A DNA stretch of 63,190 bases, the filler included, from Rhabdomonas costata (lineage: Eukaryota), in assembly GCA_019059605.1 (NCBI GenBank). It is 54 parts of 54 records of this genome, joined end to end, with 100 filler letters (N's around TTAATTAATTAA, not from the genome) between each part and the next. Parts side by side here need not be neighbours in the genome. Positions count along the whole stretch, not along the records: positions 41,023 to 42,094 come from JAHMHO010030124.1; 53 more parts are not named here. One strand, written 5' to 3'. The translations under genes were made by a program, and so were the position numbers. This document shows positions 4,556 to 42,094 of this stretch, piece after piece. Positions within the stretch are counted from its first letter, which is position 1. Each line of letters opens with the position of its first letter. The notes under the pieces are model-generated. The model was not told the DNA's origin. It was given only the letters and a program-made list of their open reading frames with translations, and ran no database searches.

Positions 4556-6148
4556 AGGACTGTTTGAGATTAAAGGAGGATGGGGATGGNNNNNNNNNNN
4601 NNNNNNNNNNNNNNNNNNNNNNNNNNNNNNNNNTTAATTAATTAANNNNNNNNNNNNNNNNNNNNNNNNNNNNNNNNNNNNNNNNNNNNGTGGTGGGTGT
4701 GTGTGGTGCTTGGTGGTTCCTTTCGCTGACGCTTGCTGTGCAATGCGAGGAGGACAGAAACGACGGACTGAATGAGAGTTGGTGTAAGAAGAGGGTGCGT
4801 ATGTGTGAGAGTTGAAATCCAGAGTGCCCAGGTACTTTCACTGCGCCAACGACACCCATCGTTTGGGCGCCCTTCTCTACTCCCAGCTGTTTTTTGACTT
4901 TGGGTGCATGAAGCTATACGCACCCCCCTCTCTGTCTCTGTCGTTCCGCCACGATCTCGGCTTCGCTGTGTGCCTCTGATGCCCCAGGCCCAGCCTCCCC
5001 GGCTGGGCCTGGCCTTCTGTGCAGCCGCAGCCTCCCAGCCTTTGTTCAGGGCACAATAATGAGGTGCCGCTCCGCAGCACGGAGCGGGGCTCGTGGGCCT
5101 TCTCCCGTGGCTGCCTCTGGTCGGCCGATTTATCCCTTCCTTCCTGAGTCGCAGTTCACATCGTAATTGTGTTTTTGGGGGCAGCACCCCGTTGGCTACC
5201 TAACCCCACAAATGATGTGTGCAACCTAGGGATTCCATGGGTTAGGGTTAGTCAAAGATAATTATGTGCGCCCGTTATTGATGATCTGGATCTTTTCCGG
5301 GATGTGATGATAATGAGTCGATGGGCACCGTCACTACCATGAACGAAATCAGGAAGGACGATCAAAAGAAGAGCCTCACCGAACCGGACGGCATCTTGAA
5401 GACTTTACGAACCACGACGAAAGCTCCAAAGAAGATCAATCAAAGCAGCAGTAGAAGGGGAGAGTCCTCCACCCTTTGAGCAGCGGTGGAGAGGCGGCCA
5501 ACAGCCCTCCTAAACTTCTAAAGAAGCCTCTTGTGAGAATGGTAGAATTGGTACACGCGTCTGTGATTTTCAGGGCCGGCGGCTGAGGAGCGTCCCCCTG
5601 CCGAGATTGTGCTGCGGCAGCTTTGCGCGGCGTCCTCAAAGGTCTCCCAGGTCAAGAGCGACTTCTGCTCATGCGAGGATCTCAGCAGGGGTCTGAGGGC
5701 CCACCCTTCCCTCCATACCTGCCTCCACGTGCGCACTCCTTTGACTTGACAACAAACACAANNNNNNNNNNNNNNNNNNNNNNNNNNNNNNNNNNNNNNN
5801 NNNNNTTAATTAATTAANNNNNNNNNNNNNNNNNNNNNNNNNNNNNNNNNNNNNNNNNNNNGGGTTTGTGTGCTCCTCAACTTCAACCTCTACCTCTTCT
5901 TTGAGGAGCACAGAAATCCTCCTGCTCCCTTCATCAACACTGCATACCATTCAATTAGAGTATTGCCTGGTGCACTAGAATCGCAGGTGGCCAAACGGAC
6001 GGAGCCTTGGTGAGCAATCCCCCCACTCTCGTGGGGTGTGGGTGTCTAAGAAACCTTCATTCATTCGTTTGTTCGTCATTACAGCACTGCGCTCCCCCAT
6101 TCCCGTCCGCGAATCCTGATTATTCATCAGGGAGCGAAAAACACGGAC

Positions 6149-6905
6149 CTGTTCCCCCTGCGACCAGTACCAGCTTGCGGTACTTCCTCGGCGTGTGCGT
6201 AAACTCCCCGGAGAAAGGTCCGGCCACAAAGGCGGCATCGCCCACGGCGAGGTCGTGCAGCCCCCGCGAAACCGTGCCGTCGGGATACCGCTTCACCATC
6301 ACCTCAAGCCACCTATACGATGCAAGGACGGCCAAGAAGGAGAAAGTATATTTCACGTGAACCAGCTGCAGAATCACCCCGCTTATGATCTGGCTCAGGT
6401 TGCACTGCAAATAAGAACGGTGGTGAAACAATTTCAGAGAAAAAGTACCCGACCTGCGAAGTTGGCGAATCAGTTTCGGTGAGCGTATTTCTACCGTGAC
6501 GGTTTGCACTTTCAGTAAAATAAAGCGTGTTTCGATATTTTGCTTTTGTTTTTTTGTTGGGGGGGGGGTGAGCAGTAATCTGTCAAGGTAGAAATCGGAG
6601 TCTGACGAAAACTTCGAGATACAAATTATTCGTCAAAACTTTATTGTGAAATGAAAGATCCGATGCGTCAGTGATTTGGTGCAAGTGCAAGAAAAGAAAC
6701 GTTGAGAAAGATAGCTGCAAAAAAGTTGGACGCCGCACACCCAGGTCCCACAGACAGGGGAGTGTAGCTGCGCGCAGCGAACCGCCCCGTGACGCCATCC
6801 ACCAGCCCGATCTTCACATGACCTGTGAGGGGCACCACGAGTTCCCTGGGAAGCCCATCTGCCCACCGCAGCCGCAGCATCGCTGTGTCATGGCTGACCG
6901 CAACA
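6149..6905 (-). CDS. NADH-cytochrome b5 reductase-like FAD/NAD(P)H oxidoreductase, partial (exons ~6905-6741, 6312-6149)
   Basis: VSHDT..LRL...GHVKI...RSYTPLS|G WLEVMVKRYPDGTVSRGLHDLAVGD..VAGPF...LVLVAGGTG contains the FAD motif RxY(T/S)P, G..S and the NAD motif GGTG. GT-AG intron is in phase. Confidence 0.9.
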
Positions 6906-14064: not shown

Positions 14065-14693
14065 TCATCTGATGTAAAAGTATTATCTTTAATGTTTGTA
14101 AGATCTTTTTTAATTTTTCTTATTTCAGAATAAAAATAATTTCGTTTTTCTTTCTTTTCTTGTTTTGAAAGTTCCATCTCATTAATTTTTCCTATTTCAT
14201 CTTTTACATGAAAAGATATATTAACAAATTTATTAAGATGATCTAAAAAATGTTCTGATATATTATTTTCAATATTTTTAATAATGTCAATAACTTCATA
14301 AGCAATAATAAAATTTAATTTTGTGTCATTTAATATTTCGTTAGAAATGCATTTTTTAAATTCATCATTATAAAATATTTTTAATTTTTCTAATAATTGT
14401 TTAGTTGTTTTATTAGGAGGTTTCCCTCTAGTATCTTGTCGAACAGTTATTGTTTTAATAATACATTTAATAAAAATTTCATTTATATTTGGAAAATGTT
14501 CATTATTATCATATAATTTAATTAAATATAATTTAAGAAATTGATATGTTTGAATAATGATTTTGTTGACAAGAATTACATGATCATTAATATTTTTATG
14601 TAATTCTGTATTTTTAATAATATTTTTAAGAGGACATTTATTTGTAACAAGCAATTCCAATTTTTCTTTTACTTTTGGTTTTTGAGAATTCAT
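14065..14693 (-). CDS. Fanzor-like (eukaryotic/giant-virus TnpB homolog) protein, N-terminal ~209 aa, truncated by the contig end before RuvC
   Basis: TNKCPLKNIIK...INDHVILVNKIIIQTYQFLKLYLIKLYDNNEHFPNINEIFIKCIIKTI...DTRGKPP...LLEKLKIFYNDEF...LNFIIAYEVIDIIKNIENNISEHFLDHLNKFVN follows the Fanzor1 WED/REC N-terminal pattern I recognise from giant-virus copies. Intronless and very AT-rich. Confidence 0.75.
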
Positions 14694-14797
14694 TTATATA
14701 TACAATACTATATTATTTTTTATATCCTTTTATAAACGAATAAAAAATAAAAACTAATACATTTATATAAAAAGAAGTATTAGTAAAATATATCATA

Positions 14798-15136
14798 ATG
14801 GATGTATACCAATATGTATGTGAAAAATGTAATTTCAAATGTAAATATAAATCAGCATGGGATAGACATATAGATACAGAATTACATAAAACAGGAAAAA
14901 GAAAACAAAGAAATGATATAAAAGAACCGTTTAAATGTACATTTTGCGATTATATAACAAAGAATAATGTGTTGATAAAACAACATATATTAAATGAACA
15001 TTCAACAAAAAAAGAAAGAGAAAATAATTTTAAATATTATTGTTCCGTGTGTGACTATGGAACATTTGCAAAAGATCTTTATGAAAGACACATTAAAACA
15101 ATAAAACATAATAAATATATACAACGACAAACAAAC
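14798..15136 (+). CDS. Triple C2H2 zinc-finger protein, giant-virus-like (runs to the contig end)
   Basis: CEKCNFKCKYKSAWDRHIDTELH; CTFCDYITKNNVLIKQHILNEH; CSVCDYGTFAKDLYERHIKTIKH. Divergent from the Fanzor-like ORF across 104 bp. Confidence 0.88.
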
Positions 15137-20752: not shown

Positions 20753-21098
20753 CTTTGTTAGGTGTGTGTCGGGCGGGTTAGGGAGGTGAGTGTGTCTGCA
20801 GTCCTACTGTCGGTCTTCACCAGACATGGATCTTCCCCTGAAATTATATGCTTTTCAGCTCAACAGAATTGCTCAGGCTATAAATTGGCTGCTGCTGTGG
20901 CTTGCACGAGAGGGAGCTCATGCCACACGACGACGTCACGGCAGCGGTGGCGGCAAAGCACGAAGAAATACAAATGCTAAAAGAGGGACCAACCCCCNNN
21001 NNNNNNNNNNNNNNNNNNNNNNNNNNNNNNNNNNNNNNNNNTTAATTAATTAANNNNNNNNNNNNNNNNNNNNNNNNNNNNNNNNNNNNNNNNNNNNT

Positions 21099-22154
21099 TT
21101 GGGTAATGTATTTTCATATGTATCAAATTGTTCAGATGTAATATGTTTAAATAAAAGAATATATTACATCTTATTTCAATCAATTAAAAATACAAGAATT
21201 CAACGTATACTCGATCATTTGAATGACAATCAACCATATGAACGAAAAATTATTCAATTTGAAATGAATCAAGATAAATTAAATGATAACATAAATACTT
21301 TTTGTAACTTGCACGATGACATAAATATAAAAATAAAAAATTACATTTTCTCAGAATTAACAAGTAATACAATTTTTTATATATTAGGTGGTTGTGTTTT
21401 GTATTTAATTTCTGATATAAATAAAATAAAATTCAATAATTCAGATATTGATATTTACATTATATCAGATGATCATAAGAATACAAAAACAGGTATTAGA
21501 AAAGTAATATACGATTTATATAAGATTGACAGTAAATTTATTGTTGTAGAAAATGAAAAAACAATTACATTGTATCATCCAACTTTTAGGAGAATTCAAT
21601 TTGTTAAACATGTTTATAAAAGTTTAATTCAAGTCTTTGACTTTTTTGATATTGATTGTTGTTGTTTTGCTTATAAAAACAACAATATTTATACATTAGA
21701 TGATGCAATCTTTTCTTTAAATAACAAAATAATATATATGAATTATGTATACAAATCAATACTAATTGAACAATTACGATGCTATAAATATCATTGTAGA
21801 GGATTTGATGTTGAAGTAATAAGACAAACATATTATCATACACAATGTATATCAAGTACAAAATCAGTTCAATTTAAGGAAATTGTTGACAAAGATAAAA
21901 TTTATTCATTTAATCAGTTAGTTATGATTACAGATCCACCTGTCTTTACAGATAGATTAAACATAAATAAACGTTATACACATGATATAATTGACAATGT
22001 ACATTGCAGTGTAGCAAATCCACACGAAGTAAATGTATTTTATTTTGAACAATACGGAAATCAAATCAATACAACTGATTATACATATGCAGAATTTTTT
22101 AATAAATTACATGATGTTCAATTGTTAATACAAAAGATTTTTTTAACATTTTAA
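21099..22154 (+). CDS. Pol-beta-superfamily nucleotidyltransferase-like protein, giant-virus-like, 5' partial
   Basis: Intronless AT-rich 351-aa frame with ILGGCV...SDIDIYI (GG/DxD motif), TITL...RRIQF..Y.S...VFDFFDIDCC and R..KY..RGF. Confidence 0.75.
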   Translation: MGNVFSYVSNCSDVICLNKRIYYILFQSIKNTRIQRILDHLNDNQPYERKIIQFEMNQDKLNDNINTFCNLHDDINIKIKNYIFSELTSNTIFYILGGCVLYLISDINKIKFNNSDIDIYIISDDHKNTKTGIRKVIYDLYKIDSKFIVVENEKTITLYHPTFRRIQFVKHVYKSLIQVFDFFDIDCCCFAYKNNNIYTLDDAIFSLNNKIIYMNYVYKSILIEQLRCYKYHCRGFDVEVIRQTYYHTQCISSTKSVQFKEIVDKDKIYSFNQLVMITDPPVFTDRLNINKRYTHDIIDNVHCSVANPHEVNVFYFEQYGNQINTTDYTYAEFFNKLHDVQLLIQKIFLTF

Positions 22155-22592
22155 TGAAATAAAACCCACNNNNNNNNNNNNNNNNNNNNNNNNNNNNNNN
22201 NNNNNNNNNNNNNTTAATTAATTAANNNNNNNNNNNNNNNNNNNNNNNNNNNNNNNNNNNNNNNNNNNNGGTTGTTGTTACGGTAGTTTGGTAAAAAAAT
22301 CCAAATTGGATGTCAAGGACCAGACAGTACGCAGTGCTCAAGTTTGACCGGAACAACGAGTACTGCTTTTTTGACACATCACAGCGGTTGGACCAAATCT
22401 ATCCGAGGACAGTTGCCGGTTAGGATTGACGCTCATACGAACAGATTAATGGAACCCGAAGGAAGCAGAAACCGGGTGATCGATATCTCCAGCCATATCA
22501 GAAGATACCGAAAGCAAACTATCAACATCGGGTCACAGAGCGGGCCTGGGTAATCGAGGGGGCAAAAAAATCCAAAGCAAAGTCCGAAGGAC

Positions 22593-33006: not shown

Positions 33007-33742
33007 CTCCATAATCGTCACCGCAGCTACATTTCATGGGTCACGGCATAACGCCCCCCACCACGGTTCCACATGATTGCACTGCGCAACGATCACTGTG
33101 TGATGTCTTGATTCTCAGGCTTGTGGGTAACTCTCACCTCACCGCCACCCACCCACCCACGCGCACACGCATTTGTGTGGATGGATTGGCATCCTTTCGC
33201 GGAGTTGACCAGGGGGCTGTTTTTATCGCCTCGCAGCTGGCGGCGTGCGTGGCCCAGCACGGATTTGTCGCTCCCTGTGCACCCCCGGCTCGCGGACCCT
33301 CCTTGCTCGGACTCAGTCAGCTTCTGGTCGGGGGTCGCTCCGGAGCGGGCAGTGGCTTCTTGTTTGCCATCGTTGGCCAGCGACAAGATGGCTATCCGGA
33401 CTCCATTGCCCTACCCAGGTCCTCACACACACACACACACACACAGCTGGGTACGGATACTGTGAGGCACCGAGGTCGGCTAGAATCCATATCACGGTCT
33501 AACACGCTGGTCTCGATTGGGCGTTAGGATGAAGGCAACTCTGGACCACCCCAGCCAGGTCTTCCCCTGTGGAACAAGGGGGCCAGCAGATGCCTGGTTG
33601 GGGATATAAGTTGCCTGGAGATGACCGAGTCGCGAGACAAAAGACTTAAGATGGTGACTGAGAAAGGTCTATCTCTCTCTCAAACACAGGGCATTCTTCT
33701 GTCGATCCTTTCCATGGCACACACACACGCACACACCGCACG

Positions 33743-36334: not shown

Positions 36335-36514
36335 GTTTGAATGAAAATTAACAATACCGAAGCAAGCGGTTTAGTGAATTTTACAATATAAGAATATTTC
36401 AATTTTTATTTTACTTTAAATACATATACTTAAAGTAAAATAAAAATTGAAATATTCTTATATTGTAAAATTCACTAAACCGCTTGCTTCGGTATTGTTA
36501 ATTTTCATTCAAAC
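36335..36514. repeat. 85-bp perfect inverted repeat (36335-36419 / 36430-36514) at the contig start
   Basis: The arms are exact reverse complements around a 10-nt loop. Confidence 0.95.
36443..36450 (+). promoter_or_regulatory. AAAATTGA Mimiviridae-type early promoter motif
   Basis: Exact motif about 90 nt upstream of the ATG at 36541, in AT-rich intergenic DNA. Confidence 0.65.
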
Positions 36515-36540
36515 ACATTGCTTTGCCTAAAGTCGACACA

Positions 36541-36858
36541 ATGGCATCTCAAAATCAGTTGTTTGCCGATGTGGACGAAGATCTGCTTCAAAGATTTAAA
36601 GATGCCGAAAAAACTCTTACGAATGCAGACCTTCGACTTTCTGCGGAAATGTTAAACTTTGCTAAGGCAGACGACAAAGAAGCTCAGACTCTCAAAATAA
36701 AAGATGCAGAGCAAGTCAGGAAGCTTGCTCTGGACGAGTACAACAGCCTCCGAACACCTGTCATCGAACATTTGGAGAGCATCATCGGCTTTGAAGAATT
36801 AATCGAGAGCATACGTAATGCCGTATGGCAACTCAATGGCATTGTACGACTGCTGTGA
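36541..36858 (+). CDS. Hypothetical helical protein (105 aa), giant-virus-like ORFan
   Basis: Complete intronless ORF MASQNQLF...GIVRLL*, with a promoter motif upstream and a hairpin downstream. Confidence 0.7.
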   Translation: MASQNQLFADVDEDLLQRFKDAEKTLTNADLRLSAEMLNFAKADDKEAQTLKIKDAEQVRKLALDEYNSLRTPVIEHLESIIGFEELIESIRNAVWQLNGIVRLL

Positions 36859-36889
36859 CTGTTATATAGCTGGACTGGAGAGCACTGCT

Positions 36890-36924
36890 TTTTTATATAT
36901 CAAAATATTTTTCATATATAAAAA
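36890..36924 (+). terminator. AT-rich palindrome after the ORF stop (Mimivirus hairpin-rule 3' end signal candidate)
   Basis: tttttatatat-caaaatatttttc-atatataaaaa, about 30 nt after the stop. Confidence 0.45.
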
Positions 36925-37029
36925 TGATGATATTTACTCTATTTTGCTTATATATATTGAATTATATTCACAAAACACCATCAAATATAGGAAATTTAAC
37001 CTTGTAACATGTTAATTTATCTTTAAATA

Positions 37030-37037
37030 AAAATTGA
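37030..37037 (+). promoter_or_regulatory. AAAATTGA Mimiviridae-type early promoter motif
   Basis: Exact motif about 91 nt upstream of the ATG at 37129. Same context (aataaaaattgaaatat) as the first copy. Confidence 0.65.
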
Positions 37038-37128
37038 AATATATCTGTTATAAAATCAATATATTGAAACGAAAATAAAGTAGGATGTATAAATTCTTCG
37101 TCAATACTGCTCTACACTTTGCTATCTG

Positions 37129-37380
37129 ATGTCTGCAAGTATGCTTTCAAAAATTCTTGCGCATGTCAATGCCGAACGGCAAAAGTTTTCAGATTGTTTC
37201 GACAAGCTTGCTTCAGAACTGCCAGAAGTTTATCCAGAAGTGGAACGCACTTGGAAATGTTCATACATACATTTACTTGAAGCGCAAGATGTATTTCTGA
37301 CTGTCTGTCGCGAAAGCTTTGAGCTGGCATTTGCTGATGAATCGCCGTTCGATCCAGCAGATGATAATGAGGAAAAATAA
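37129..37380 (+). CDS. Hypothetical acidic protein (83 aa), giant-virus-like ORFan
   Basis: Complete intronless ORF downstream of AAAATTGA. Confidence 0.65.
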   Translation: MSASMLSKILAHVNAERQKFSDCFDKLASELPEVYPEVERTWKCSYIHLLEAQDVFLTVCRESFELAFADESPFDPADDNEEK

Positions 37381-38678
37381 AAAAACCACTAAACTCACCC
37401 AACACANNNNNNNNNNNNNNNNNNNNNNNNNNNNNNNNNNNNNNNNNNNNTTAATTAATTAANNNNNNNNNNNNNNNNNNNNNNNNNNNNNNNNNNNNNN
37501 NNNNNNGTGGTGGTGTTGTCCTCGCCCTCTGCGTCACTGTCCTTCCTTTTCCACTGAATATCTCGAAGCCTTTTCCGCTTTGCTTTCTCCTCCCCACGTG
37601 CCGAGCTTTTCTGAAGGGAGAGAGGGGAGGGGAAGAAATAGGGAGAAGTAGAGGTCCCTTCTGCGATACTCACAGGATCACCTGTTGCCTGCAAGGACCT
37701 GTCCGAAGCTTTGAACAGGCTATTCCAGGTCACTGGGGCACGCGCCCCCCTCATGTCTGCATCGACTTACCAGGTTCGCTTTTCACCCGTGCCCTCATTT
37801 TCATTTCTTATTCTTTTTCCGTTGTGCCTTCCCCTCGCAGCCCAATCAGAGCCCTTGCAGCTCATTTTCCGCATACTGGGTTTGGCGGTGGCATGGTACA
37901 CCCAGATAAGCTTCCTCCAACCGGGCACGTGCTCGAGAGAAAACCGACAGAGTTACCCTTTTTAACCACAACCTTAGAAACTCACACTATGTCCGCCTGC
38001 GTCAGTCCTGTCTTTCTTCCTGTTGTCCTACACCTCGTTTCTCCCTCGCAGTCATTTACATGCATTACCCCTTGTGATTGTGGGACGCGCAGGATAAGGT
38101 GGCTGAGGCCACGGTTTCACTCCAGCGGCTGTTCTCCAGGACTCACCCCAAACTGGTCGAGGCGTGGGTTACCCCGTGGGACGAGACCCACACCACGCAG
38201 ACAAAGCTCTCTGAGGACCGTCTCCGGTGCCTTATTATGGGTCCGCAGCCCTAACTCCAATATAACCCCCCCCCACCGCACCCTTCACACACACATGAAG
38301 GCATAGGAAGGCACAAAGGCGGGGCGAGCATGCATGTGCGGTGTGGTTGATATCATGCACGCTGCATGTGTGCGCGTCGGGAAACCCGGCTCCGCACGGA
38401 TTTCATGCCGGCGGTGGTGTTCCAGATCTGTGACAGACCTGGAACACACCACCCCCGTGCTCGCGCGCGGAGAGGGTGCGCTGATCCCGAGCGAGCCGCA
38501 CACAGGACTCAGGACGTACATTGTGGCGGCTCACGCACGCGTACACACACGCACACACACACACACACAACAACCAACNNNNNNNNNNNNNNNNNNNNNN
38601 NNNNNNNNNNNNNNNNNNNNNNTTAATTAATTAANNNNNNNNNNNNNNNNNNNNNNNNNNNNNNNNNNNNNNNNNNNN

Positions 38679-39750: not shown

Positions 39751-40175
39751 NNNNNNNNNNNNNNNNNNNNNNNNNNNNNNNNNNNNNNNNNNNNTTAATT
39801 AATTAANNNNNNNNNNNNNNNNNNNNNNNNNNNNNNNNNNNNNNNNNNNNGGGTGTTTTGCTGGCATTGGGGGCGGCAGTGGTGGCGGCGGTGTGGGTGA
39901 CGTCGTCAAGACTGCTAGCGATGCGACTTATTTTTGACTTCGGTTAGAGATAAGAAAAAAGATAGAGGAATAGAAGCAGGCATGAATGAAAACTTGGAAA
40001 CAGAAAAGATGTCCCTCGCATACACGCGCGCTGCCTGGGTGCTCCCACGATGGACCCTATAGCTCTGTTGGGTGCAGAGTTTCTCGCACTACTTTGATGA
40101 AGTATTCGTTGTTACCCAGCAGCCTGCTGTTTGGAACAGGTTCCATTTCCGTGCCTGTGGGGTTTTCTTTCGCAG

Positions 40176-40736
40176 AGGACGCCCAGTGGCTGAGGTGCCT
40201 TCTCGGCGGTGTCACCGACGCCCTGCTAGTGGGTGACCACAGCCTTCAGGTCCGCGGAGTAAGCCCAGCGGCGGCGCAGCTGTTCGGCTACGCAGACTCT
40301 GCTGCGCTGCTCGGGCGCCATCTCCGAGAACTTATCCAGGTCTCATTGCATGAGTAGGATAAAGGCGTTGACGACTGAACTCGCACACTCGGTCGCTCCC
40401 TCCTTGCGTTTCCTGCCGCCGAGGTATCATTTCAGTCCTAACACCGTCTCTGATCATGTGACCTCTTCAGTTCTGAAGTCATCCGTTTTTTTGCTGATGT
40501 GGCCGGGCCACTTTCTATGCTTCAGTTTCTGGCATACCGTTGTGCTCCAATGCACTTACCCGTTGCTGCCGGTACGCTTTCTGCCATGGGCCGGGTGCAT
40601 CCCGAGCATTCTTTCTGTCTTTGCAACTCCTTGTGATTCAGATTCCAGAGCTCGGCTTGTCGGATCAGCTGCGATGCGAGCAATCTGTGGTGGGGCGGCT
40701 AAGCGACGGCTCTGCGGTGCAACTTGAGATGGCATT
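40176..40736 (+). CDS. PAS-domain protein, partial (exons 40176-40339, 40642-40736)
   Basis: LLGGVTDALLVGDHSLQVRGVSPAAAQLFGY...LLGRHLRELI|...VVGRLSDGSAVQLEMAL, a PAS core plus PAC motif. Confidence 0.82.
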
Positions 40737-41022: not shown

Positions 41023-42094
41023 GGGCTTTTGGCGGGCACAACGGAGGGAGAAGATAGGGCGCTGGAGGGGACAAGGCTCTTCATGCTTGCACTTAGCTGG
41101 GAGACGTCCTGCATCAATTCAGGGTGGCTTCCAGAGTCCAGGGCAAAAAGTTGGGTCTCCACGGTTTTGCCCTTCATCTTAAACGATCCACATGGAACGA
41201 GGCTCAAACTAGAGCTCATACGGGACGCTGTGGCGTCACAAACCAGTAGAGGCTGCAGCAGCTTGTCGCACATCGACTGCACACGGGCCGCTGTATTGAT
41301 AGTGTTGCCCATTAGCGTGTAGTCGCATCGCCTGCTGCCAATGGGGCACATCAAAGCCTTTCCAAAAGCCACCCCAAGGCTGACGTGGAATAGAGACTTC
41401 GGGTCAGTAGGAGCAGAGGCCATCCGCACACCCCGGACATCGGTCAGAATAGAAACAAGACAGCGAGAAAGGCCAGCGGGATTGTCACGAGGGAAATACG
41501 CCAGCACTCCATCTCCAATGAACTTGCAAAGCTCCCCTCCATTTTCCAGGACACGGTTAGCACAAATCTCGGCATAGGTGTTCACAACGTCAACTGCAGT
41601 CGCCAAACCATGGACCTCAAGCAGCTCGGAAAAGCCGCAGGTGTGAGTAAAGATTGCAAAAATCTCAACTTGGCGCGAGGGAAGGGCAGAAGGGTCTTGC
41701 TCTAGGAGCAAGGCATTTGCCACAACTTGAGGAAGGAAACTTTTCATGGCGTTCATGGCTACCCCCAGCCGCTCCACGGTGGCGCAGAGGGGTCCAAACG
41801 AGGTCAGGGCAGTAATCTCATGGATCTGCGGATCCCACTCGGGGTGTTTACGCTCCACCGTTGGCCGGTGCAGCAGGAGAGTCACTCTGTGGATGGCGGG
41901 ATCCTCCTGTGCCCTGGTGTAGGTTGCGAACAGGAACGGCTCTCTCCCCTCCAATGTGCAGAAGAGCATGGGGTGGGCATAGATTGTGGTCCCCGTGACG
42001 CCGTTTTGGGCGTGGCCAGCCCCAAGACGCTCAATCAGGTTGGAATGCTCTTGGGCCGAGAGCTTCATTTTGACCTCAACCACAAAGAGAGTGC
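41023..42094 (-). CDS. Photoactivated adenylyl cyclase (PAC)-like protein: degenerate BLUF domain + class III nucleotidyl cyclase; open at both contig ends
   Basis: BLUF-like part: NGVTG..IY....FCTLEG.E......Y.R.QEDP...R.HPEW. Linker: SFLPQVV...DP.ALP. Cyclase: GGELCKFIGDGVLAYF, SLGVAFG, DYTLMGNTINTAARVQS, KMKGK. Collinear with bPAC and with the Euglena PAC F1-C1 unit. Confidence 0.88.

What the first reader, a model, noticed from the sequence alone, without database searches (positions are those of the whole stretch)
41023..42094. A 'blind' photoactivated adenylyl cyclase: PAC architecture with a pseudo-BLUF domain
Seen: a BLUF-linker-cyclase unit collinear with PAC, but the BLUF photochemistry residues are replaced. 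By eye alignment: Y-x-S becomes F-V-V (TLFVVEV), flavin-binding NN becomes GH, FQxLEG becomes FCTLEG (Gln to Cys), D-x-R-H becomes DPAI, and W-x-M becomes WDP. Established: BLUF photoactivation needs the conserved Tyr and Gln, and PAC is the Euglena photoreceptor. Inference: the fold is kept in an intact frame but cannot sense light conventionally. It may bind another ligand, sense redox through the new Cys, or act as a regulatory PAC subunit, making it a candidate undescribed PAC subfamily.
Basis: partly seen in the sequence, partly recalled or inferred. Interest (0 to 1): 0.8.

Follow-up and report, generated by a model that had tools for sequence, protein, structure and literature searches.

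The report
PAC-family cyclase fragment with dead BLUF
This short contig encodes part of a light-activated-cyclase-type protein whose light-sensor domain keeps its fold but has lost the residues needed to sense light, and it is probably only the first half of a larger two-part enzyme.

Summary
The finding is one 1072-bp contig in a window made of 54 unrelated short contigs joined by N spacers. Its minus strand is open end to end (356 codons), so the protein is cut at both ends. It is a collinear BLUF, alpha3 linker and class III cyclase unit (Pfam above cut-off for both domains; OaPAC E 5.5e-27; predicted fold matches OaPAC and bPAC at TM 0.81-0.85).

That is the signature of the first unit (F1-C1) of euglenid two-unit PACs, which the fragment also matches best. 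No protein in 1.84 billion representatives exceeds 30% identity.

The likeliest reading is the N-terminal half of a very divergent PAC paralog with a non-photochemical F1. Whether the whole protein is blind cannot be told, because a second unit would lie off the contig. An E. gracilis paralog with a degenerate F1 and an intact F2 already exists. The source organism is not established.

The parts
41023..42094 (-). Whole contig. One open frame of 356 codons (first full codon at 42092), cut at both ends by the contig ends.
41811..42092 (-). Degenerate BLUF domain (residues 1-94), with strands 2-7, 33-39, 42-48, 67-74 and 86-92 and helices 13-24 and 51-63. It starts at strand beta1, so anything N-terminal is off the contig.
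   Evidence: Pfam BLUF 31.6 bits; AF2 topology; alignments.
42084..42086 (-). Codon TTT, Phe3, at the position of the photoactive Tyr (OaPAC Tyr6).
42012..42014 (-). Codon CAC, His27, at the position of the flavin-binding Asn (OaPAC Asn30).
41958..41960 (-). Codon TGC, Cys45, at the position of the photoactive Gln (OaPAC Gln48).
41691..41804 (-). Alpha3 linker helix and handle (residues 97-134) joining the BLUF and cyclase domains, as in OaPAC and bPAC.
   Evidence: AF2 helices 97-117 and 122-129; collinear alignment to OaPAC.
41139..41675 (-). Class III cyclase domain (residues 140-318) of the unit-1 (C1) type. Lys190, Thr259, Asn266 and Arg270 are kept. The metal ligands read His150, Asp194, Gln272.
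   Evidence: Pfam PF00211; OaPAC residue roles from passages of PMC11533990.
41643..41645 (-). Codon CAC, His150, in place of the first metal-binding Asp (OaPAC Asp156). The same His occurs in 5 of 9 euglenid unit-1 domains.
41511..41513 (-). Codon GAT, Asp194. The second metal-binding Asp (OaPAC Asp200) is retained, whereas all 9 euglenid unit-1 domains have Gly here.
41025..41138 (-). Low-confidence Ser/Pro-rich tail (residues 319-356) that runs open into the contig end. It is a possible inter-unit linker.
   Evidence: pLDDT 57-62 over the last 16 residues (about 341-356); higher earlier in the tail. Weak alignment of its PEL motif to the C1-F2 linker of PAC beta and alpha.

Best explanation
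The contig encodes the F1-C1-type unit of a very divergent member of the euglenid-type two-unit PAC family (F1-C1-F2-C2), cut at both ends by the assembly. The BLUF domain (F1) keeps the fold but has lost the Tyr-Gln-Met photochemical triad and the flavin-binding Asn, so it cannot run the BLUF photocycle. I infer that it serves as a non-sensing structural partner, pairing through its alpha3 helix with a second BLUF or coiled-coil partner. The cyclase domain has lost two of three metal ligands but keeps the substrate and transition-state residues (Lys190, Thr259, Asn266, Arg270). I infer that it cannot form an active site as a homodimer. Instead it would supply the Lys/Thr/Asn/Arg half of one shared active site to a partner cyclase domain that carries the Asp-Asp-Glu metal triad. 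That partner is most likely a C2 domain further down the same polypeptide, beyond the contig end. Any light control would then come from an F2 domain that we cannot see. Shown: the domain order, the fold prediction, the substitutions and the unit-1 signature. Inferred: the missing second unit, the heterodimeric active site and the scaffold role of F1.
For: (1) Collinear BLUF-alpha3-cyclase homology to OaPAC and bPAC.
(2) The best hits among 1.84e9 representatives are two-unit euglenid PACs at 24-27% identity: E. stellata PAC beta P0130, E. gracilis PAC alpha-like P0133, E. gracilis transcripts P0131, P0132 and P0136, and E. longa P0134.
(3) In local phmmer the query scores higher on unit 1 than on unit 2 in 8 of 8 euglenid-type two-unit proteins: 127 vs 86, 119 vs 64, 111 vs 69, 96 vs 73, 102 vs 62, 96 vs 59, 135 vs 15, 69 vs 45 bits.
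(4) Residue signature. Nine of 9 euglenid unit-1 domains lack Asp at the Asp156 and Asp200 positions and lack Glu at the Glu279 position, but keep Thr (9/9), Asn (9/9) and Arg (8/9). Seven of 7 complete unit-2 domains keep both Asp (Glu in 6/7) and have lost Asn and Arg (0/7 each). The query reads His, Asp, Gln, Thr, Asn, Arg, which is unit-1-like at 5 of 6 sites. Its His150 is the residue found in 5 of 9 unit-1 domains.
(5) The A-L/M-L/M-C motif before the Gly loop (query ALMC) is shared with euglenid unit-1 domains. The single-unit proteins have V-x-E-G there.
(6) All 17 single-unit bacterial-type proteins in the table keep both Asp. A cyclase domain lacking the first Asp but keeping Asn and Arg occurs in 10 two-cyclase proteins and in one 431-aa E. 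gracilis transcript.
(7) The careful ML tree puts the query with the 9 unit-1 domains on one side of a branch (UFBoot 98, SH-aLRT 89). The quick PMSF tree gives the same place with SH-aLRT 84.
(8) Precedent: E. gracilis EG_transcript_1657 (P0145, 899 aa) has a degenerate F1 (Val for Tyr, Ala for Asn; Pfam no longer detects it) and an intact F2.
(9) Constraint is uneven, as expected for a working cyclase with a retired sensor pocket. The query keeps 18 of 26 columns that are at least 85% conserved in the cyclase part, but only 6 of 15 in the BLUF part.
Against: The second unit is not observed, because the contig ends 38 residues after the cyclase domain. AU tests do not reject placing the query with unit 2 (p 0.256) or with the single-unit proteins (p 0.099). 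Against the quick PMSF tree, the constrained query-plus-unit-2 tree was even 6.2 lnL better. The query's branch is very long (1.35-1.97 changes per site). Asp194 is retained, unlike in all 9 unit-1 domains. P0155 shows that a unit-1-type protein of 431 aa with no second unit is on record, although it may be a partial transcript. No ortholog, transcript or neighbouring sequence was found, so expression and selection are untested. The organism is unknown.
Confidence: 0.55

Rival explanations
1. A stand-alone single-unit protein (BLUF-like domain plus half-site cyclase) that is wholly blind. It would act as a regulatory or dominant-modulating subunit by pairing with canonical PAC subunits or other cyclases.
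For: A 431-aa unit-1-only E. gracilis protein is on record (P0155, EG_transcript_13097). Asp194 is retained as in single-unit proteins. The highest pairwise identity in the tree set is to a single-unit protein (P0142, 28%). The AU test does not reject grouping with single-unit proteins (p 0.099).
Against: P0155 may be a partial transcript. The frame stays open to the contig end. 10 of the 11 other units that lack the first Asp but keep Asn and Arg sit in two-cyclase proteins. The unit-1 signature and the score pattern also argue against it.
Confidence: 0.2
2. A decaying or unexpressed gene copy (for example a processed pseudogene) whose BLUF and metal-site losses reflect relaxed selection rather than a new role.
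For: No matching protein was found in any database searched, including the E. gracilis and E. longa transcriptome-derived sets present in the library. The branch is very long. There is no intron in 1072 bp. Conserved sites are lost in both domains.
Against: 356 codons run without a stop or frameshift, despite about 75% amino-acid divergence from every relative. The glycines and Lys/Thr/Asn/Arg of the cyclase core are kept (18 of 26 conserved columns). The AF2 model is confident. The metal-site losses match the functional unit-1 pattern rather than random decay.
Confidence: 0.13
3. The BLUF-like domain still binds a flavin or another ligand and senses something unconventional. Examples are redox state or thiol chemistry through Cys45, or non-canonical photochemistry.
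For: The equivalents of OaPAC Arg63 and Asp67, which bond the flavin C2=O and the ribityl chain, are kept as Arg60 and Asp64, and Trp86 is kept. From my recall of the literature, not from a call: Tyr-to-Phe and Gln mutants of BLUF proteins generally still bind flavin. A new Cys lines the pocket.
Against: 5 of the 7 OaPAC flavin-contact residues listed in PMC11533990 are replaced (Tyr6, Lys29, Asn30, Gln48, Met92), including the Asn that bonds N3 and C4=O. The Arg-His of DxRH, conserved at 95-97%, is also replaced. There is no direct evidence for any ligand.
Confidence: 0.1

Closest known systems
Euglenid photoactivated adenylyl cyclase subunits (PAC alpha/beta; F1-C1-F2-C2), e.g. E. stellata PAC beta BAD20732 (P0130) and E. 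gracilis P84739 (P0133)
   Same: They are the best database matches. The query shares the unit-1 signature: no Asp at the first metal site (His, as in 5 of 9), no Glu at the third, Thr/Asn/Arg kept, and the ALMC-type motif. The careful tree groups the query with unit 1.
   Different: Identity is only 24-27%. The F1 domains of PAC alpha and beta keep Tyr, Asn, Gln, Arg-His and Met, while the query has lost all of them. The query keeps the second metal Asp that all 9 unit-1 domains have lost. The second unit is not seen.
E. gracilis EG_transcript_1657 (P0145, 899 aa), a PAC paralog with a degenerate F1
   Same: Its F1 has lost Tyr (Val), Asn (Ala), His, Trp and Met, and Pfam no longer detects it. 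It is a unit-1-type cyclase. It shows that a non-photochemical F1 exists inside a two-unit PAC whose F2 is intact.
   Different: It keeps the Gln. It lies inside the crown unit-1 clade, whereas the query lies outside it. It is not closely related to the query (68.6 bits over the linker and cyclase only).
Bacterial single-unit PACs with solved structures: OaPAC (4yus, 5x4t) and bPAC (5m27)
   Same: Same domain order, and the predicted fold matches over about 350 columns (TM 0.81-0.85). Lys, Thr, Asn, Arg and the second Asp are conserved.
   Different: These are homodimers with two full active sites and photoactive BLUF domains. The query lacks the equivalents of Tyr6, Asn30, Gln48, Met92, Asp156 and Glu279.
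Single-unit BLUF-cyclases lacking both Tyr and Gln (P0153, 356 aa; P0244, 367 aa; unnamed metagenome or run-assembly proteins)
   Same: The BLUF domain is fused to a cyclase, with Phe at the Tyr position and Met or Tyr at the Gln position.
   Different: P0153 keeps the full catalytic set (Asp, Lys, Asp, Thr, Asn, Arg, Glu) and groups with single-unit proteins. It is a better candidate than the query for a truly blind, self-sufficient PAC-like cyclase.
Mammalian-type pseudo-heterodimeric class III cyclases (C1/C2)
   Same: The catalytic residues are divided between two homologous domains, so that only one active site forms. This comparison is from established knowledge, not from a call.
   Different: The sensor and membrane architecture is different, and the domains that carry the metal ligands come in the opposite order.

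Membership tests
BLUF domain (PF04940) | Sequence profile match above the curated cut-off | tested here: met
   31.6 bits against a cut-off of 25, residues 7-87.
BLUF domain (PF04940) | Beta-alpha-beta-beta-alpha-beta-beta ferredoxin-like fold | tested here: met
   AF2 model: E2-7, H13-24, E33-39, E42-48, H51-63, E67-74, E86-92, with block pLDDT of 79-90 through residue 80, then 73 and 62 for residues 81-100. Foldseek matches OaPAC and bPAC across the BLUF part. Caveat: the model was built from an alignment of PAC homologs.
BLUF domain (PF04940) | Photoactive Tyr on beta1 and Gln on beta3 | tested here: not met
   Phe3 and Cys45. Tyr is present in 92% and Gln in 97% of the 39 aligned relatives. 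60 of 71 surveyed units have both.
BLUF domain (PF04940) | Flavin-contact residues (OaPAC Lys29, Asn30, Arg63, Asp67, Met92) | tested here: not met
   Gly26, His27, Arg60 (kept), Asp64 (kept), Pro88. With Tyr and Gln, 2 of 7 are kept.
BLUF domain (PF04940) | Binds FAD or FMN and shows the red-shifted photocycle | not testable with these tools
   Needs purified protein and spectroscopy.
Class III nucleotidyl cyclase (PF00211) | Profile match and fold | tested here: met
   31.6 bits against a cut-off of 21.9, residues 144-313. The bPAC cyclase domain 5mbg matches at TMt 0.93.
Class III nucleotidyl cyclase (PF00211) | Metal-binding Asp pair plus Glu (OaPAC Asp156, Asp200, Glu279) | tested here: not met
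   His150, Asp194, Gln272: 1 of 3 kept.
Class III nucleotidyl cyclase (PF00211) | Substrate and transition-state residues (Lys, Thr/Asp, Asn, Arg) | tested here: met
   Lys190, Thr259, Asn266, Arg270.
Photoactivated adenylyl cyclase (PAC) | BLUF joined to a class III cyclase through the alpha3 helix, collinear | tested here: met
Photoactivated adenylyl cyclase (PAC) | Blue-light-stimulated cAMP synthesis | not testable with these tools
   The visible BLUF lacks the photochemical residues. A possible second BLUF is off the contig.
Euglenid two-unit PAC (F1-C1-F2-C2) | Unit-1 residue signature (no metal triad; Thr/Asn/Arg kept) | tested here: met
   5 of 6 sites are unit-1-like. Asp194 is the exception.
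Euglenid two-unit PAC (F1-C1-F2-C2) | Groups with the unit-1 clade in phylogeny | tested here: inconclusive
   The split has support 98/89 and SH-aLRT 84. AU tests do not reject the alternatives (p 0.256 and 0.099).
Euglenid two-unit PAC (F1-C1-F2-C2) | A second BLUF-cyclase unit in the same polypeptide | not testable with these tools
   The contig ends at residue 356.

The most novel reading that the evidence does not exclude
A euglenid-type PAC lineage in which the BLUF scaffold has been retired from light sensing and reused. The whole protein might be blind: a constitutive or partner-controlled cyclase subunit that tunes cAMP output of the photoreceptor complex. Or the reshaped pocket (His27, Cys45, Pro88, with Arg60, Asp64 and Trp86 kept) might sense redox state or a small ligand instead of light. 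It would be a deep-branching, undescribed PAC subfamily, sister to all known F1-C1 units.
Probability: 0.15. Interest if true: 0.7.

Novelty: new variant of a known kind. Interest (0 to 1): 0.4.

Why it matters
PACs are the textbook BLUF photoreceptor enzymes and are widely used optogenetic tools. It is still unclear why the euglenid enzymes carry two BLUF and two cyclase domains each. A natural unit-1 whose BLUF is photochemically dead, alongside the E. gracilis paralog P0145 with the same kind of loss, would show that F1 can be dispensable as a sensor while being kept as a structural module. That would parallel the long-known degeneracy of one of the two catalytic sites. The retained second metal Asp also makes this sequence look like an intermediate between homodimeric bacterial PACs and the fully asymmetric euglenid C1. 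Such an intermediate bears on how the asymmetric enzyme evolved. The value is limited for now, because only a 356-residue fragment from an unidentified organism is in hand.

Tried and rejected
- Whole-genome context: no genome is held for this window. Neighbouring sequence in the window is from unrelated contigs, so there is no synteny.
- Earlier notes of this scan, by place and by sequence: nothing.
- Word-index protein searches: 'near' (195-623 aa) and 'longer' (624-2000 aa) gave only generic cyclases at 21-38% identity over the cyclase part, with no BLUF-cyclase.
- Metagenome contig scan with six exact peptide patterns: 64 pattern matches, none a relative.
- Organism identification: Rfam over the whole window gave 0 matches. 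A kinase exon from another contig (59891-60358, minus strand) had no hit at E <= 1e-8 among proteins of 274-2000 aa. So I could not show that the window is E. gracilis. That cut-off would have let an identical protein through but not distant kinases.
- Literature: 'pseudo-BLUF', 'degenerate BLUF' and 'non-canonical BLUF' gave 0 occurrences, and 'BLUF-like' or 'BLUF-related' appeared in 5 papers held, 4 listed, none on cyclases. 'PAC-like' together with Euglena gave 0 occurrences. The F1/F2 domain query found 0 papers.
- The quick PMSF tree search proved unreliable, because a constrained tree scored better than the free one. I therefore rely on the careful LG+G4 tree and report the AU tests as inconclusive.
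- Complex prediction was not used. A homodimer or unit-pair pass would largely reflect likeness to solved PAC dimers.
- A bacterial contaminant origin was considered and judged unlikely, because of the unit-1 signature and motifs shared only with euglenid unit-1 domains. It is not formally excluded (AU p 0.099).

Full report
WHAT THE WINDOW IS. The 63,190-base window is not one stretch of genome. It holds 108 runs of exactly 44 N, paired around the 12-mer TTAATTAATTAA. These split it into 54 contigs of 1071-1076 bp. The finding, 41023-42094, is exactly one of these contigs. Its neighbours are unrelated sequence, so there is no gene neighbourhood to read. No whole genome is held.

THE OBSERVATION. 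On the minus strand, from 42092, the contig reads as 356 codons without a stop, open at both ends. Pfam finds BLUF at residues 7-87 (31.6 bits, cut-off 25) and the class III cyclase domain at residues 144-313 (31.6 bits, cut-off 21.9). Against PDB sequences, the best matches are the two solved bacterial PACs, collinear over residues 20-320: OaPAC at E 5.5e-27 and bPAC at E 5e-25. Weaker matches go to stand-alone BLUF proteins.

An AlphaFold2 model built on 40 aligned sequences has mean pLDDT 88.9. It shows the BLUF beta-alpha-beta-beta-alpha-beta-beta order, a long alpha3 helix (97-117) and a cyclase domain. Foldseek matches it over about 350 columns to OaPAC (TM 0.81) and bPAC (TM 0.85). The model leans on an alignment of PAC homologs, so it is supportive rather than independent evidence.

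- Tyr-x-Ser becomes Phe3-Val4-Val5.
- The flavin-binding Asn becomes His27, and the residue before it is Gly26.
- Gln becomes Cys45.
- Arg-His of DxRH becomes Ala66-Ile67.
- Trp86 is kept, and Met becomes Pro88.

Passages of PMC11533990 name the OaPAC flavin contacts as Tyr6, Lys29, Asn30, Gln48, Arg63, Asp67 and Met92. Through the alignment, the query keeps only the last-but-one pair, Arg60 and Asp64. BLUF photochemistry as known is therefore out. Flavin binding as such is unlikely but not excluded.

The cyclase domain is also half-degenerate. The OaPAC metal ligands are Asp156, Asp200 and Glu279, and the query reads His150, Asp194 and Gln272. The residues that act from the other side of the dimer interface are kept: Lys190, Thr259, Asn266 and Arg270.

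The table shows this to be the pattern of the first unit of two-unit PACs:
- In 9 of 9 euglenid unit-1 domains, the two Asp and the Glu are all absent (Tyr/His/Gln/Lys; Gly; Ala/Thr/Ser). Thr and Asn are kept in 9 of 9 and Arg in 8 of 9.
- In 7 of 7 complete unit-2 domains, both Asp are kept (Glu in 6 of 7), while Asn and Arg are lost (0 of 7 each).
- All 17 single-unit, bacterial-type proteins in the table keep both Asp.

The query is unit-1-like at 5 of 6 sites, down to the His that 5 of 9 unit-1 domains have. It differs in retaining Asp194. It also shares the A-L/M-L/M-C motif with unit-1 domains.

RELATIVES. The exhaustive search of 1.84 billion representatives gave 25,333 hits at E <= 1e-3, but only 8 at E <= 1e-30. 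Among the full-length BLUF-cyclase hits none exceeds 31% identity; a few cyclase-only partial matches reach 35%. The top seven are two-unit proteins of 567-1019 aa. By name they are E. stellata PAC beta, the E. gracilis PAC alpha-like protein P84739, three E. gracilis transcriptome proteins, one E. longa protein and one metagenome protein. In local phmmer, the query scores higher on unit 1 than on unit 2 in 8 of 8 euglenid-type proteins. In three non-euglenid two-unit proteins it scores higher on unit 2. These are a diplonemid protein, a Thecamonas protein and an unnamed one.

A careful ML tree (41 units; 3 very partial units dropped: P0136_u2, P0166_u1, P0152_u2) puts the query and the 9 unit-1 domains on one side of a branch with support 98/89. 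The query lies outside the crown unit-1 clade (100/100), on a long branch. A quick PMSF tree gave the same place with SH-aLRT 84.

Against this, AU tests do not reject grouping the query with unit 2 (p 0.256) or with the single-unit proteins (p 0.099). Against the quick tree, the unit-2 constraint even scored 6.2 lnL better. The unit-1 assignment therefore rests mainly on the residue signature and the score pattern. The tree is consistent with it but not decisive.

HOW UNUSUAL IS A DEAD BLUF ON A CYCLASE? My own BLUF HMM found 71 BLUF units in 59 proteins among the 150 best hits plus the query. Of these, 60 have both Tyr and Gln, 4 are cut before the Tyr, and 7 lack one or both. Three lack both: the query (Phe, Cys), P0153 (Phe, Met) and P0244 (Phe, Tyr). 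The query is the most eroded in the pocket.

One of the seven is E. gracilis EG_transcript_1657 (P0145). Its F1 is so degenerate that Pfam reports only the F2 BLUF, while F2 keeps Tyr, Asn, Gln, Arg and His. This is a direct precedent for a two-unit PAC with a non-photochemical F1. Ebenezer et al. 2019 (PMC6366073, passages read; supplement passages) state that the euglenid photosensor cyclases have 'one or two BLUF domains with a double NCIII domain'. In the passages I saw, they do not discuss loss of the photochemical residues.

IS IT A LIVE GENE? There is no ortholog, so dN/dS cannot be computed. In favour of constraint:
- 356 open codons persist despite about 75% divergence from every relative.
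- 18 of 26 highly conserved cyclase columns are kept, against 6 of 15 BLUF columns.
- The losses in the cyclase follow the functional unit-1 pattern.

Against: no matching protein exists in any collection searched, although the E. gracilis and E. longa transcriptome proteomes are in the library.

ORGANISM. This is not established. Most contigs have GC 0.46-0.60, and two have 0.19 and 0.22. Rfam finds nothing. A kinase exon from another contig has no near-identical protein in the database. The euglenid label rests only on the affinity of this one protein.

MECHANISM PROPOSED. The fragment is most likely (0.55) the N-terminal F1-C1 half of a divergent two-unit PAC-family protein. By inference, F1 is a light-insensitive scaffold that still pairs through alpha3. 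C1 would supply Lys, Thr, Asn and Arg to a single shared active site, whose metal triad comes from a partner C2. Any light control would come from an unseen F2.

The rivals are:
- a stand-alone blind regulatory subunit (0.20);
- a pseudogene or unexpressed copy (0.13);
- a pocket reused for flavin, redox or ligand sensing through Cys45 (0.10).

VERDICT. The interpretation 'blind PAC' goes beyond a fragment that is probably half a protein. This is a new, very divergent variant within a known family, with at least one partial precedent in E. gracilis. Interest is moderate until the full gene and its source organism are known.

Noticed in passing
window 1-63190: The window is an artificial concatenation of 54 contigs of 1071-1076 bp, joined by N44-TTAATTAATTAA-N44 spacers. 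Findings that span spacers or rely on gene order here would be artefacts.
   Followed up: yes
window 14065-15136 and 21098-22169: Two contigs have GC 0.19 and 0.22, against 0.46-0.60 for most of the rest (one further contig, 36335-37406, is at 0.34). The first carries an ORF (14771-15136, plus strand) with a C2H2 zinc-finger hit (E 2e-7). The second is filled by a 351-aa ORF with no Pfam hit. They probably come from a different organism, organelle or virus than the bulk.
   Followed up: partly
window 39986-40354 (+), 59891-60358 (-), 6123-6632 (-): Exon-like ORF pieces on other contigs: a weak PAS match (E 6e-4, below cut-off), a protein kinase piece (Pkinase E 4.8e-11) and a weak FAD_binding_6 match (E 6e-4). 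The kinase piece has no near-identical protein of 274-2000 aa in the database.
   Followed up: partly
P0153 (356 aa) and P0244 (367 aa), database proteins: These are single-unit, bacterial-type BLUF-cyclases that lack both the Tyr and the Gln (Phe/Met and Phe/Tyr). P0153 keeps the complete catalytic set. They are better candidates than the query for a self-sufficient 'blind PAC'.
   Followed up: partly
P0145 = E. gracilis EG_transcript_1657 (899 aa): This is a two-unit PAC paralog whose first BLUF is degenerate (Val for Tyr, Ala for Asn; Pfam does not detect it), while the second BLUF is intact. It is a 'one-eyed' PAC already present in the published transcriptome.
   Followed up: partly
P0139, P0144, P0147, P0152 (two-unit BLUF-cyclases outside euglenids): The split of catalytic residues between two units (one keeps the metal ligands, the other keeps Asn and Arg) also appears in a diplonemid protein (Rhynchopus), in Thecamonas and in unnamed proteins. 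In P0152 the order of the two kinds of unit is reversed.
   Followed up: no
several contigs, e.g. window 49267-49866 and 33015-33524: ORF translations contain runs of His-Thr repeats, which indicates CA/TG dinucleotide microsatellites in many contigs.
   Followed up: no
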